This document shows positions 42,401-45,400 of a stretch of DNA of 64,000 nt, in pieces. The position numbers were made by a program. The stretch comes from Escherichia coli (GTDB lineage Bacteria > Pseudomonadota > Gammaproteobacteria > Enterobacterales > Enterobacteriaceae), in NCBI RefSeq assembly GCF_048403405.1, contig NZ_CP183129.1. The stretch is one strand, 5' to 3'. Position 1 is the stretch's first letter. Each line of letters opens with the position of its first letter.

Positions 42401-45400
42401 TGTTCGATAAAACCGGGACGCTGACCGAAGGGAAGCCGCAGGTTGTCGCAGTAAAAACATTTGCTGATGTTGATGAAGCGCAAGCATTGCGTCTGGCGGC
42501 GGCGCTGGAGCAAGGTTCCAGCCACCCGCTGGCACGGGCGATCCTCGATAAAGCAGGTGATATGCAGCTACCGCAGGTCAACGGTTTCCGCACATTGCGC
42601 GGGCTGGGTGTGAGCGGTGAAGCAGAAGGTCATGCGTTGTTGCTGGGTAATCAGGCGTTGTTAAATGAGCAACAGGTTGATACCAAAGCTATCGAAGCGG
42701 AGATTACTGCTCAGGCATCGCAAGGGGCAACGCCTGTGCTGCTGGCGGTTGACGGGAAAGCGGTAGCCCTGCTGGCTGTACGCGATCCGTTGCGTAGTGA
42801 TAGCGTGGCGGCGCTGCAACGCCTGCATAAAGCGGGATATCGTCTGGTGATGCTAACCGGGGATAACCCAACCACCGCCAATGCGATCGCCAAAGAAGCA
42901 GGGATTGATGAGGTGATAGCCGGGGTGCTACCGGACGGTAAAGCCGAAGCGATCAAACGTCTGCAAAGTGAAGGACGTCAGGTGGCAATGGTGGGCGACG
43001 GCATTAACGACGCGCCAGCGCTGGCTCAGGCGGATGTCGGTATTGCGATGGGTGGCGGCAGTGATGTTGCCATTGAAACCGCGGCGATTACCCTGATGCG
43101 CCATAGCCTGATGGGTGTTGCAGATGCGCTCGCGATTTCCCGCGCAACGCTGCGCAATATGAAGCAGAACCTGCTCGGCGCGTTTATCTACAACAGTATC
43201 GGTATTCCGGTCGCCGCCGGTATTTTGTGGCCGTTCACTGGAACACTGCTTAACCCGGTGGTTGCCGGAGCGGCAATGGCGCTCTCGTCGATTACCGTAG
43301 TGAGTAACGCTAACCGGTTGCTGCGGTTTAAACCGAAAGAGTGATTGGTATTTACTTAATGCGTTTGTGAGATCCAGTTCTTGTTGCGCTCCTTTTATGA
43401 GTCATGCCATATAAAGTGACTGGCGCAGGGAGCGCGCAGGGGGCGGCCAATCGCCGCCGCCCCCTGCACCCCCGGGCTCTGGCGAACAAAATCGCCGCTG
43501 CGCGGTACCCTCAGCTTATCCCTTGCGGCTACCGGGTCGGGCGCGAGGTAACATCCCTGTAAAACGCGCCCTCAGCCCACATCCATGTGGGCTGCCCCGG
43601 CCTTCAGGGAACGCCTCGGCGATTTTGACGCCACCAACACCGGTGCAGTCTTTCGTTTCAAAGCAAAAACAATTTTTCGATCATATTTAAGCTACCACTG
43701 AACAAGCCTCATAACTCCATTTGCGCCATCCCTCCCCGCGCGCTAGCATGATATTTCACAAAGGGAGGTCGTATGGATCTGTTGTACCGGGTAAAAACGC
43801 TTTGGGCCGCGCTGCGCGGTAATCATTACACCTGGCCTGCTATCGATATCTCTCTTCCCGGCAATCGCCATTTTCATCTGATTGGCAGTATTCATATGGG
43901 CAGCCACGATATGGCTCCCCTGCCCACCCGTTTGCTCAAAAAGCTCAAAAACGCCGATGCGCTGATCGTCGAGGCGGATGTTTCCACCAGCGATACGCCT
44001 TTTGCTAATTTGCCTGCCTGCGAGGCGCTGGAAGAGCGCATTAGCGAGGAGCAACTCCAAAACCTGCAGCACATTAGCCAGGAGATGGGCATTTCTACCT
44101 CACTCTTTTCTACCCAACCGCTGTGGCAAATCGCGATGGTTCTTCAGGCGACGCAGGCACAAAAACTGGGGCTGCGGGCAGAATACGGTATCGATTACCA
44201 GCTATTGCAGGCGGCGAAGCAACAACATAAACCCGTGATTGAACTGGAAGGGGCTGAAAACCAGATTGCCATGTTGCTCCAGCTCCCTGACAACGGACTG
44301 GCGCTGCTGGACGATACGCTGACCCACTGGCACACCAATGCACGGTTGCTGCAACAAATGATGAGCTGGTGGCTGAATGCGCCGCCGCAAAATAATGAAA
44401 TAACGCTGCCTAATACGTTCAGTCAGTCGCTGTATGATGTGCTGATGCATCAGCGAAATCTCGCCTGGCGGGACAAATTATGCGCCATGCCGCCGGGGCG
44501 CTATGTGGTCGCAGTCGGTGCACTACACCTGTATGGAGAAGGGAATTTGCCGCAGATGTTGCGCTAAAAAAATGGCCAATATCGCTATTGGCCCGTCAAA
44601 GAGGAATTTCATATTTTTATTATTATGCCGTCACTTTAAGCGACGGTGTAACTCGATTGTCGCTCAATCTCACCATCCTGCCAATACTCTTAGGCAAGAT
44701 GACTCTTTTTTTGGACCGCCATCAGGCGTATGCTTGCTTCGTTTTTTTGTTTAAGGCAGGAAAATTACCATGACACCCGCAGTTAAATTACTCGAAAAAA
44801 ACAAGATTTCGTTTCAAATCCATACCTACGAGCACGATCCGGCTGAAACCAATTTTGGCGATGAAGTCGTCAAAAAATTAGGTTTGAATCCGGATCAGGT
44901 CTACAAAACGCTGCTGGTCGCAGTGAACGGTGATATGAAACACCTTGCCGTGGCCGTTACGCCGGTCGCAGGTCAACTGGATCTTAAAAAAGTAGCAAAA
45001 GCGCTGGGTGCCAAGAAAGTTGAGATGGCCGATCCGATGGTTGCGCAGCGTTCGACGGGATATCTGGTTGGGGGGATTAGCCCTCTGGGGCAGAAAAAAC
45101 GTCTGCCAACGATTATCGACGCCCCCGCACAAGAATTTGCCACTATTTATGTTTCCGGTGGCAAGCGCGGACTGGATATCGAACTGACGGCAGGCGATCT
45201 GGCGAAGATCCTCGATGCCAAATTTGCTGATATCGCCCGCCGCGATTAAGCATTGTGCCGGATGCGAACATCCGGCACTTTCGGATTACTGCCAGCTCAC
45301 CTCACCTTTCGGTTCATAAACACTCACATCCAGCGGCGAGCTTTTCTGGATATACGCTTTCAGCACTTCGGCATCAATAAAGCCGGTATTCACATAGCCC

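What the first reader, a model, noticed from the sequence alone, without database searches (positions are those of the whole stretch)
43345..43772. No ybaQ between copA and ybaP; instead a GC-rich structured element with an ERIC-like motif
In K-12, as I recall it, the small regulator gene ybaQ lies between copA and ybaP. Here the 428-bp interval has no ORF of 60 aa or more on the ybaQ side. It contains a GC-rich segment beginning ATAAAGTGACTGG (resembling the ERIC/IRU core AAGTGACTGGGG) with nested inverted repeats (GGCGAACAAAATCGCCG / CGGCGATTTTGACGCC; CAGCCCACAT / ATGTGGGCTG). This could be a repeat-mediated replacement of ybaQ or an unannotated structured RNA.
Basis: partly seen in the sequence, partly recalled or inferred. 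Interest (0 to 1): 0.45.

Follow-up and report, generated by a model that had tools for sequence, protein, structure and literature searches.

The report
Known TRIP1e/RRS repeat replacing ybaQ
The GC-rich element between copA and ybaP is a copy of the already published E. coli TRIP1/RRS repeat (type TRIP1e), a folded DNA element shown in K-12 to make the replication fork leave a gap. In about 6% of E. coli strains it sits where the small antitoxin-like gene ybaQ lies in the others.

Summary
This E. coli window has no ybaQ between copA and ybaP. Window 43338-43700 (363 bp) replaces 730 bp of K-12 (three REP units plus ybaQ), and 347 of 5426 complete E. coli genomes share this allele.

The element is not ERIC and not new. 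It is the TRIP1 repeat of Rudd 1999, and specifically TRIP1e of Li et al. 2024 ("38 bp downstream of copA, 124 bp upstream of ybaP"), which is window 43383-43648. It is 94% identical to K-12 TRIP1a.

TRIP1a and TRIP1c are the "Replication Risk Sequences" of Pham et al. (2023, 2024). These are DNA elements whose G-quadruplex strand, when it is the lagging-strand template, blocks polymerases and triggers post-replication gaps. The exact G4 motif is at 43454-43473 on the minus strand. By synteny with K-12, that strand is the lagging-strand template.

Three of my results were not in the papers I could read:
- The family has very strong compensatory covariation with a one-strand G·T bias.
- It is related to the orphan Rfam motif TwoAYGGAY, in the Csr/Rsm clan. 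Relatives pass the family threshold; this copy does not.

Verdict: a real feature that is already known.

The parts
40840..43344 (+). copA CDS. Its last three codons (AAA GAG TGA) differ synonymously from K-12 (AAG GAA TAA).
43338..43700 (.). Segment with no homology to the K-12 copA-ybaP interval. It replaces 730 bp of K-12 (three REP units, ybaQ and its upstream region).
   Evidence: blastn and alignments
43383..43648 (-). TRIP1e repeat (an RRS-type element) as delimited by Li et al. 2024: 38 bp after the copA stop, 124 bp before the ybaP start. The minus strand is the orientation of the K-12 TRIP1a top strand, 94.0% identical over 266 nt.
43363..43382 (-). Weakly conserved tail beyond the terminal stem (..CAAC-N-CACA[T/A]A..).
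   Evidence: flank comparisons
43638..43672 (-). Conserved extension on the other side (UUGUUUUUGCUUUGAAACGAAAGACUGCACCGGUG), shared with other Escherichia, Kluyvera and Pseudocitrobacter copies.
43486..43629 (-). Core domain: closing stem, internal stems and two adjacent hairpins. My covariance model R1 scores it 170.2 bits. Rfam TwoAYGGAY (RF01731) scores 43489-43628 at 31.5 bits, E 0.006, below the gathering score of 43.
43573..43594 (-). Hairpin 1: CAGCCCAC-AUGGAU-GUGGGCUG as read on the minus strand. The stem covaries (CCCACA/CCCGCA/CCAGCA).
43539..43571 (-). Hairpin 2, with ACAGGGAUGU at its tip. CA-GGA-G is invariant in the 46 aligned cores; hairpin 2 was not part of my scan pattern.
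43487..43497 (-). 3' arm of the closing stem (CGGCGAUUUUG on the minus strand), pairing with 43617-43627.
43617..43627 (-). 5' arm of the closing stem (CAAAAUCGCCG on the minus strand).
43436..43467 (-). Perfect 12-bp GC hairpin (GCAGGGGGCGGC/GCCGCCCCCUGC). It covaries in other copies (GGAGGA/UCCUCC, GGGUGGUGG/CCACCACCC).
43454..43473 (-). Exact match to the RRS G-quadruplex motif GGGGGTGCAGGGGGCGGCGG of Pham et al. 2024.
43386..43392 (-). 3' arm of the terminal stem (GGAGCGC on the minus strand), pairing with 43429-43435. It covaries with GUGAACG/CGUUCAC (Citrobacter) and AGAGCGC/GCGCUCU (Enterobacter).
43429..43435 (-). 5' arm of the terminal stem (GCGCUCC on the minus strand).
43414..43423 (+). 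The 'ERIC-like' 10-mer AAGTGACTGG. It lies in the variable loop enclosed by the terminal stem and is not conserved in other copies.
43701..43772 (.). ybaP upstream region shared with K-12, Nissle and ST69 alleles.
43773..44567 (+). ybaP CDS.

Best explanation
The element is a copy of the E. coli TRIP1 repeat, which is the same thing as the Replication Risk Sequence (RRS). It is the published type TRIP1e, which lies between copA and ybaP.

Shown here:
- 94-95% identity to the two K-12 copies.
- The position matches the published TRIP1e.
- The exact RRS G-quadruplex motif is on the minus strand.
- The fold is conserved across Enterobacteriaceae by compensatory changes, with a G·T over A·C bias on that same strand.

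Taken from experiments on the K-12 copies (Pham et al. 2023, 2024): when the duplex is unwound at the fork, the G-rich strand folds into a G4 plus hairpins. If that strand is the lagging-strand template, it blocks polymerases, so a gap of up to about 2 kb is left behind the fork and is loaded with SSB and RecA. The authors propose that such gaps relieve topological stress. RRS work wherever they are placed in the chromosome.

Inferred for this window: the G4 strand (window minus = K-12 top strand at 0.51 Mb, clockwise replichore) is the lagging-strand template. This strain would therefore have a third gap-triggering site about 0.4 Mb origin-proximal of the lysO RRS.

The element does not interrupt ybaQ. 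It belongs to an alternative haplotype of the copA-ybaP spacer that lacks the ybaQ (HigA-type antitoxin) cassette and its REP units.
For: Identity:
- Megablast finds a 271-bp core (43379-43649) at 1-8 places in 5425 of 5426 E. coli genomes, about 94% identical, for example aqpZ-lysO and dusC-yohP.
- It is 94.0% identical to K-12 TRIP1a and 95.4% to TRIP1c over their published coordinates.
- Li et al. 2024 (PMC10888264) describe TRIP1e 38 bp after copA and 124 bp before ybaP, 265 bp, 94% identical to TRIP1a, in 232 of 6725 genomes.
- Pham et al. 2024 (PMC11194060) state that RRS equals TRIP1.

Mechanism:
- The G4 motif is exact at 43454-43473(-).

Structure:
- 25 of 56 RNAalifold pairs have compensatory changes.
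- In the core, 98.1% of cells are paired against 89.5% in shuffles and about 40% in slid controls, and 17 pairs change on both sides.
- G·T occurs in 41 cells at 15 positions, against A·C in 6 cells at 4 positions.

Alleles.
Against: - No experiment exists on TRIP1e itself.
- The lagging-strand assignment rests on synteny with K-12. The GC skew of the window is only weakly negative.
- Natural E. coli carry TRIP1a and TRIP1c in either orientation (Li et al.; my). Inverted RRS gave no RecA/SSB peak in Pham et al.. Gap triggering is therefore not a constant property of every natural copy.
- The exact G4 motif is present in only 15 of 53 family members. A relaxed G-run pattern is present in 37 of 53. 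The hairpins and their GGA tips are much better conserved, which the G4 model alone does not explain.
Confidence: 0.75

Rival explanations
1. It works as RNA. The minus strand would be transcribed and fold into a TwoAYGGAY-type domain whose two hairpin tips (ACAUGGAUGU and ACAGGGAUGU) bind a CsrA dimer, acting as a small CsrB-like decoy or a local regulator. This could hold in addition to the DNA role.
For: - Rfam TwoAYGGAY matches the minus strand at 31.5 bits, E 0.006.
- Related copies pass the gathering score of 43: Pluralibacter at 51.9 and 46.3 bits, and partner arms in Pseudocitrobacter and Kluyvera at 49.2 bits.
- TwoAYGGAY is in the same Rfam clan (CL00106) as CsrB.
- It has been proposed as a CsrA binder (PMC4333381).
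- Hairpin 2 matches 11 of 12 positions of the SELEX consensus RUACARGGAUGU (the consensus string is confirmed in the literature).
- GGA is kept in the hairpin-1 tip in 29 of 29 arms, and in the hairpin-2 tip in 24 of 29 arms, that my scan pattern did not select, while the stems covary.
- The G·U bias fits the minus strand.
Against: - No sigma-70-like promoter or intrinsic terminator was found in the window element or in full composites.
- There is no expression evidence.
- The CsrA CLIP-seq tables of Potts et al. 2017 flag nothing for dusC or ybjE, although intergenic peaks could not be inspected.
- The score is below the Rfam threshold for this copy and for the K-12 copies.
- G·T pairs are also tolerated in folded ssDNA, so the strand bias does not distinguish RNA from DNA.
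- In this window the upstream gene (ybaP) is divergent, so read-through cannot supply the sense transcript.
Confidence: 0.12
2. At this locus it does nothing. It would be a decayed, immobile half of a mobile repeat that arrived by recombination and persists neutrally. Its only consequences are loss of the ybaQ cassette and a new substrate for homologous recombination between repeat copies.
For: - The window copy has no terminal inverted repeat and no target duplication.
- Only about 6% of genomes carry it.
- Li et al. report rearrangements between TRIP1e and TRIP1a or TRIP1c.
- Related copies in other genera look like MITEs.
- Copies avoid divergent promoter regions, only 2 of 38 lying there, as tolerated selfish repeats do.
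Against: [quoted passage not shown] The motif is intact here.
- Of the 349 genomes in which a place covers at least 80% of the 363-bp segment, most match at 99% identity or more (326 genomes in that band genome-wide).
Confidence: 0.1
3. It acts on the plus strand as the 3' end of the copA mRNA, as a stabilising or terminating hairpin cluster that takes over the role of the REP/BIME units found after copA in K-12.
For: - It starts 19-39 nt after the copA stop.
- K-12 has three REP units in the same place.
- In 34 of 50 copies the same end of the element abuts the stop of a convergent gene.
- The plus strand also folds well, z -5.2.
Against: - The wobble bias favours the minus strand: A·C on minus would be G·U on plus, and there are only 6 such cells against 41.
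- There is no U-tract and no terminator-like site.
- The same sites carry the element in both orientations in different strains.
Confidence: 0.03
4. It is an ERIC/IRU element or a derivative of one.
For: A 10-nt identity to the ERIC2 primer core at 43414-43423.
Against: - There is no match to the 22-nt ERIC2 sequence at up to 3 mismatches.
- The 10-mer is not conserved among copies.
- The length, GC content and architecture are those of TRIP1/RRS.
Confidence: 0.01

Closest known systems
TRIP1 repeat, type TRIP1e (Rudd 1999, Res Microbiol 150:653; Li et al. 2024, Genes 15:236, PMC10888264)
   Same: Same sequence family (94-95% identical to TRIP1a and TRIP1c), same length class, and the same locus and distances to copA and ybaP. 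It is a minority allele in both surveys: 3% in their set and 6.4% in the complete genomes searched here.
   Different: Nothing in the element itself. The paper does not mention that the TRIP1e allele lacks ybaQ. It also does not mention relatives outside E. coli, covariation, Rfam or transposon-like ends.
Replication Risk Sequence, RRS-lysO and RRS-dusC (Pham et al. NAR 2023, PMC10287960; NAR 2024, PMC11194060)
   Same: RRS is TRIP1a/TRIP1c. The window copy has the identical G4 motif and the same hairpins, and the G4 is on what should be the lagging-strand template.
   Different: It lies at 0.51 Mb, not at the Ter-flanking positions about 650 kb from dif, and it has not been tested experimentally. 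Those papers describe RRS as conserved in position, with 'additional RRS' in some species. I find many copies in some species (K. pneumoniae about 13 places) and transposon-like composites.
TwoAYGGAY RNA motif, Rfam RF01731, clan CL00106 with CsrB (Weinberg et al. 2010, PMC2864571)
   Same: Both have a closing stem that can be very long and two adjacent hairpins with A-Y-G-G-A-Y tips. Both are multi-copy in a genome: the original alignment has at least 5 copies in one record, NC_008709. Several enterobacterial relatives of the window element pass the Rfam gathering score.
   Different: This copy scores 31.5 bits against a threshold of 43. Its second tip is AGGGAU. It has an extra domain (the GC hairpin with the G4 motif, and the terminal stem) outside the Rfam model. 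TwoAYGGAY is filed as an RNA, whereas the evidence for RRS is at the DNA level.
[quoted passage not shown]
   Same: In Citrobacter and Pseudocitrobacter, two diverged copies lie back to back inside a 600-720-bp unit. The unit ends in GTAATGCTGGTCAGTTAA-type inverted repeats, 13 of 18 identical to the IS1A right end. Direct repeats flank it: exactly 9 bp in L040 and L052, and 9-11 bp in L079.
   Different: The window copy is a single arm without recognisable ends or a duplication. No partner transposase was identified, and mobilisation was not tested.
REP/BIME elements
   Same: Both are GC-rich extragenic palindromic repeats found after gene ends. In K-12, REP units occupy the same spacer.
   Different: The sequences are unrelated, and this element is about ten times longer with a multi-branched fold. 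The Rfam naRNA4 (REP) model does not match here.

Membership tests
TRIP1 / RRS repeat | High sequence identity to K-12 TRIP1a (915016-915281) and TRIP1c (2229122-2229394) | tested here: met
   94.0% over 266 nt and 95.4% over 263 nt. Megablast gives 94-95% over 271 nt.
TRIP1 / RRS repeat | TRIP1e locus: 38 bp after the copA stop and 124 bp before the ybaP start | tested here: met
   copA ends at 43344 and ybaP starts at 43773, which gives 43383-43648. This is where similarity to the other copies begins and ends.
TRIP1 / RRS repeat | G-quadruplex motif GGGGGTGCAGGGGGCGGCGG on one strand | tested here: met
   Exact match at 43454-43473(-), against 0.01 expected by chance.
TRIP1 / RRS repeat | G4 strand is the lagging-strand template | tested here: inconclusive
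   By synteny with K-12 (0.51 Mb, clockwise replichore) the window minus strand is the K-12 top strand, which is the lagging-strand template. The GC skew of the window is only weakly negative. oriC and dif of this strain were not seen.
TRIP1 / RRS repeat | Triggers RecA/SSB-loaded post-replication gaps | not testable with these tools
   Known only for RRS-lysO, RRS-dusC and engineered insertions.
TwoAYGGAY RNA (Rfam RF01731) | Score at or above the curated gathering threshold (43 bits) | tested here: not met
   The window scores 31.5 bits and K-12 TRIP1a 30.6 bits. Relatives score 51.9, 46.3 and 49.2 bits.
TwoAYGGAY RNA (Rfam RF01731) | Two adjacent hairpins with AYGGAY terminal loops inside a closing P1 stem | tested here: met
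   AUGGAU at 43573-43594 and AGGGAU (position 2 is G, not Y) at 43539-43571, with the closing stem at 43487-43497/43617-43627.
TwoAYGGAY RNA (Rfam RF01731) | It is a transcribed RNA | not testable with these tools
   No promoter or terminator by consensus scan. No expression data.
CsrB/Rsm-type CsrA-binding RNA | GGA motifs in hairpin loops that bind CsrA | tested here: inconclusive
   There are two loop GGA motifs, one matching 11 of 12 positions of the SELEX consensus. Binding was not tested. The CLIP tables give no hit for the neighbouring genes.
ERIC / IRU | Similarity to the ERIC consensus beyond a short word | tested here: not met
   No match to ERIC2 at up to 3 mismatches. The 10-mer is not conserved in other copies.
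MITE (IS1-type) | Terminal inverted repeats | tested here: not met
   No TIR-like site was found near the element in the window (the only two TIR-like matches in the window lie more than 19 kb away, at 62572 and 10548), and the flank is no better than shuffles. The feature is met in relatives L040, L052, L079, L073, L018, L020 and L030.
MITE (IS1-type) | Target-site duplication | tested here: not met
   None at the window junctions. Met in relatives: ACCATACGC (L040), TCGCCTGCC (L052) and CCCTTACGG.. (L079).

The most novel reading that the evidence does not exclude
RRS/TRIP1 elements may not be fixed chromosomal landmarks. They may be domesticated single arms of an IS1-type MITE that is still intact in Citrobacter and Pseudocitrobacter, as two diverged arms back to back with GTAATGC..CAGTTAA ends and 9-bp duplications. 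They may also be the enterobacterial branch of the orphan Rfam family TwoAYGGAY. If so, the conserved two-hairpin domain with GGA tips is the functional module of a mobile element. That domain is under selection on one strand only. It is better conserved than the G4 motif. It would act either as folded lagging-strand DNA or as a CsrA-type RNA ligand. TwoAYGGAY 'RNAs' in other bacteria may then also be replication-gap elements.
Probability: 0.4. Interest if true: 0.6.

Novelty: already known. Interest (0 to 1): 0.3.

Why it matters
The finding itself is ordinary. It rediscovers a published repeat (TRIP1e) of a family with a published DNA-level function (RRS), and it shows that the 'missing' ybaQ is a known kind of presence/absence polymorphism of a toxin-antitoxin remnant.

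It still has practical value. About 6% of E. coli strains carry a third, untested RRS-type element 0.4 Mb from the lysO one. These strains are natural test cases for the 'topological relief valve' idea.

The side results would change how RRS are viewed if they hold. They suggest a mobile-element origin, many copies in Klebsiella and Enterobacter, and a link to an Rfam motif of unknown function. They also give the TwoAYGGAY motif a tractable model, because K-12 carries two copies.

Tried and rejected
- **ERIC identity:** rejected (and the alignments).
- **Protein coding:** rejected. There are only short ORFs, and single-base indels between copies sit in stems. An SD-like AAGGAG followed by AUG in some copies is one arm of a covarying stem, and the AUG is not conserved.
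- **Own promoter or terminator:** none by consensus scan in the window or in two full composites.
- **Rfam at gathering threshold:** nothing at the locus.
- **Simple inversion at aqpZ-lysO between K-12 and O157:** rejected, because the short flanks are unrelated.
- **TIR or TSD at the window copy:** not found.
- **CsrA CLIP-seq supplement:** uninformative for intergenic regions.
- **Literal sequence search of the paper library:** no hit.
- **Search of the Weinberg 2010 alignments for the enterobacterial hairpin strings:** no hit, but the stored file is truncated and gapped.
- **MAG hits (Desulfacinum, Sporobacter, 'Proteobacteria'):** these are near-identical to Klebsiella or E. coli sequence, so I treated them as bin contamination. 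L029 is a chimeric contig.
- **A first TIR search with a mis-typed consensus:** found nothing and was repeated correctly.
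Full report
**The observation.** The window is E. coli. copA is 40840-43344(+), ybaP 43773-44567(+), ybaK 44770-45249(+) and ushA 45286-46938(-). The 428-bp copA-ybaP interval has no ORF longer than 55 aa. K-12 MG1655 has ybaQ between ybaP and copA. Against K-12, homology runs up to 43337 and resumes at 43701, so 363 bp here stand in for 730 bp of K-12 (three REP units, ybaQ and its upstream region). Both strands fold much better than shuffles (z -5.35 for minus, -5.22 for plus).

**Alleles of the spacer.** The exact 428-bp interval is found in 346 of 5426 complete E. 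coli genomes (347-349 with slightly different queries). ybaQ is found in 4834 genomes. RefSeq annotates ybaQ as a HigA-family antitoxin. Other alleles include:
- ybaQ with different numbers of REP units.
- ybaQ next to a RelE/ParE-family toxin gene, which is frameshifted in Nissle 1917.
- An ST69 allele in which ybaQ is deleted, leaving a 171-bp spacer.

The left junction of the window allele lies inside the last copA codons. These read AAA GAG TGA here and AAG GAA TAA in K-12, with the same amino acids. The allele therefore looks like a separate haplotype rather than a simple insertion into a K-12-like sequence. I did not see the rest of this strain's genome, so 'ybaQ elsewhere' is not formally excluded.

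**What the element is.** A 271-bp core (43379-43649) occurs at 1-8 places in 5425 of 5426 E. coli genomes at about 94% identity, in unannotated intergenic DNA. Sites include aqpZ-lysO and dusC-yohP, with a fragment at putP-efeU. A covariance model of the core finds exactly one copy in the window, at 43486-43629(-) with 170 bits. It finds two in the K-12 regions I fetched, at aqpZ-lysO and dusC-yohP, and none in K-12 copA-ybaP.

The literature names this element. It is the TRIP1 repeat of Rudd (1999). Li et al. 2024 (PMC10888264) describe five types. [quoted passage not shown] That description corresponds to window 43383-43648. I measure 94.0% identity to TRIP1a and 95.4% to TRIP1c, with the window minus strand corresponding to the TRIP1a top strand.

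**How it most likely works.** Pham et al. (NAR 2023, PMC10287960; NAR 2024, PMC11194060) found TRIP1a and TRIP1c independently as the sites of the two strongest RecA/SSB-ssDNA peaks in the genome. They named them Replication Risk Sequences and state that RRS is TRIP1. Their results on the K-12 copies are:
- One strand carries the G4 motif GGGGGTGCAGGGGGCGGCGG and blocks Pol I, II and IV in vitro and M13 replication in vivo.
- With that strand as the lagging-strand template, the element triggers gaps of up to about 2 kb wherever it is inserted.
- Inverted copies give no peak.
- Removing or inverting both changes global supercoiling.
- Their hypothesis is a 'topological relief valve'.

The motif is present without mismatch at 43454-43473 on the window minus strand. 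By synteny with K-12, that strand is the K-12 top strand at 0.51 Mb in the clockwise replichore, which is the lagging-strand template. This step is an inference; the GC skew of the window is only weakly negative. I therefore file the element as a third, untested RRS-type site in this strain.

**Not ERIC.** The ERIC2 primer sequence (quoted from memory) has no match at up to 3 mismatches. The 10-mer AAGTGACTGG occurs once (0.05 expected), but it lies in the variable loop of the terminal stem and is different in other copies.

**The family outside E. coli.** Distant blastn found the element in chromosomes mislabelled as plasmids: K. pneumoniae at 13 places in one 5.4-Mb record, K. aerogenes and Citrobacter. 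A pattern scan of one genome per species returned 66 loci in Escherichia, Citrobacter, Klebsiella, Enterobacter, Kluyvera, Pluralibacter, Pseudescherichia, Pseudocitrobacter and Raoultella. Three MAG hits from unrelated phyla are near-identical to Klebsiella or E. coli sequence, and I take them as contamination.

**Covariation.** An alignment of 53 non-redundant elements gives 56 consensus pairs, 25 of them with compensatory changes. In the 144-nt core, 98.1% of cells form standard pairs, against 89.5% in shuffles and 34-43% when partners are slid. Seventeen pairs change on both sides. G·T cells outnumber A·C cells 41 to 6, at 15 against 4 positions. Selection therefore acts on the single-stranded form of the G4-bearing strand. 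[quoted passage not shown]

**Relation to TwoAYGGAY.** Rfam's only notable match in the interval is TwoAYGGAY (RF01731) on the minus strand, at 31.5 bits, E 0.006, against a gathering score of 43. Pluralibacter copies reach 51.9 and 46.3 bits. A second kind of arm in Pseudocitrobacter and Kluyvera reaches 49.2 bits, at the same coordinates as my model's hits.

The architecture agrees: a closing stem and two adjacent hairpins tipped with AUGGAU and AGGGAU. Arms that my scan pattern did not select keep GGA in the first tip in 29 of 29 cases and in the second in 24 of 29, while their stems differ. TwoAYGGAY shares Rfam clan CL00106 with CsrB and has been proposed as a CsrA ligand (PMC4333381). 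The second tip matches 11 of 12 positions of the SELEX consensus RUACARGGAUGU.

I found no promoter, terminator or expression evidence, and nothing usable in the CsrA CLIP tables. The RNA reading therefore remains a minority rival.

**Transposon-like composites.** In Citrobacter, Enterobacter, Kluyvera, Pseudescherichia and Pseudocitrobacter, the model finds a second, diverged arm on the opposite strand, 70-130 nt away. In Citrobacter this 600-720-bp unit aligns end to end between loci. Its ends are inverted repeats of the type GTAATGCTGGTCAGTTAA, with 31 matches at up to 4 substitutions in 1.2 Mb against 4.8 expected. The ends are 13 of 18 identical to the right end of IS1A. Three units have perfect flanking direct repeats: ACCATACGC in L040, TCGCCTGCC in L052, and CCCTTACGG(GG) in L079. 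This is the signature of a MITE moved by an IS1-family transposase. The transposase and any mobility are inferred, not shown.

The window copy is a single arm without such ends or a duplication. Copies tend to lie after gene ends and avoid divergent promoter regions, with only 2 of 38 lying there. The aqpZ-lysO and dusC-yohP sites carry the element in either orientation in different strains, with unrelated short flanks. This agrees with the orientation counts of Li et al..

**Verdict.** The ERIC label is wrong, and the 'unannotated structured RNA' reading is unproven. The element and its location are already published (TRIP1e), and its family has an experimentally supported DNA-level mechanism (RRS). 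The TwoAYGGAY link, the covariation with one-strand bias and the MITE-like composites were not in the papers I could read. I report them as the novel case, not as the main finding.

Noticed in passing
window 44566-44649 (-): sroB/ChiX sRNA (Rfam 81.1 bits) directly after, and overlapping by 2 nt, the end of ybaP, as in K-12. It is known and ordinary.
   Followed up: partly
window 16001-32000: A 16-kb stretch with GC 0.61 against 0.52-0.55 elsewhere and a strongly negative AT skew. By position relative to copA it could be an Rhs element (rhsD region of K-12). I did not examine it.
   Followed up: no
window 43327-43343 and 43646-43662: A 17-nt inverted repeat (82% complementary) pairs the last copA codons with the far end of the element, so it brackets the whole repeat. 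The synonymous differences in the last copA codons slightly improve the pairing. It may be chance.
   Followed up: partly
L083 (Nissle 1917) 803-1481; L082 (ST69) 746-916; L001 (K-12) 3219-3560: ybaQ is the antitoxin half of a HigB/HigA-like pair. B2-type strains keep a RelE/ParE-family toxin gene next to it (frameshifted in Nissle). K-12 has the orphan antitoxin plus REP units. ST69 has deleted ybaQ.
   Followed up: partly
L019 about 3369-3515 and L050 8490-8636 (also the far end of L032): An insertion of about 80 nt inside some copies (ACAAAATTGCCGGGAGCAATTTTGAACAGCGC..GGCCCAGGGATGGGCC..). It carries its own GGA-tipped hairpin, so one small repeat is nested in another.
   Followed up: partly
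L040 8998-9688; L052 5589-6189; L079 5272-5906: Complete back-to-back pairs of diverged RRS-like arms, bounded by IS1-like inverted repeats and by direct repeats of 9 bp (9-11 bp in L079). These look like MITEs.
   Followed up: yes
L022, L056, L029 (MAG contigs labelled Desulfacinum, Sporobacter, Proteobacteria): These contigs carry sequence almost identical to Klebsiella or E. coli, which suggests bin contamination. L029 joins pieces of three different E. coli repeat loci, so it is an assembly chimera at the repeat.
   Followed up: partly
plasmid collection records CP125156.1 (5.37 Mb), NZ_CP141089.1, NZ_OL790696.1, NZ_CP134663.1: Whole chromosomes are filed as plasmids in PLSDB. This was useful here, but it is a trap for plasmid statistics.
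   Followed up: no
window 9469-9546 (+), 50328-50405 (-), 58328-58392 (-): Two naRNA4 (REP/BIME-derived) matches and the dnaX frameshift element. All are known features.
   Followed up: no
L011 1629-1771 and 2066-2208 (K. pneumoniae); L077 214-360 and 365-508 (Raoultella): Tandem same-strand copies of the core, unlike the divergent pairs seen in Citrobacter and Enterobacter.
   Followed up: no
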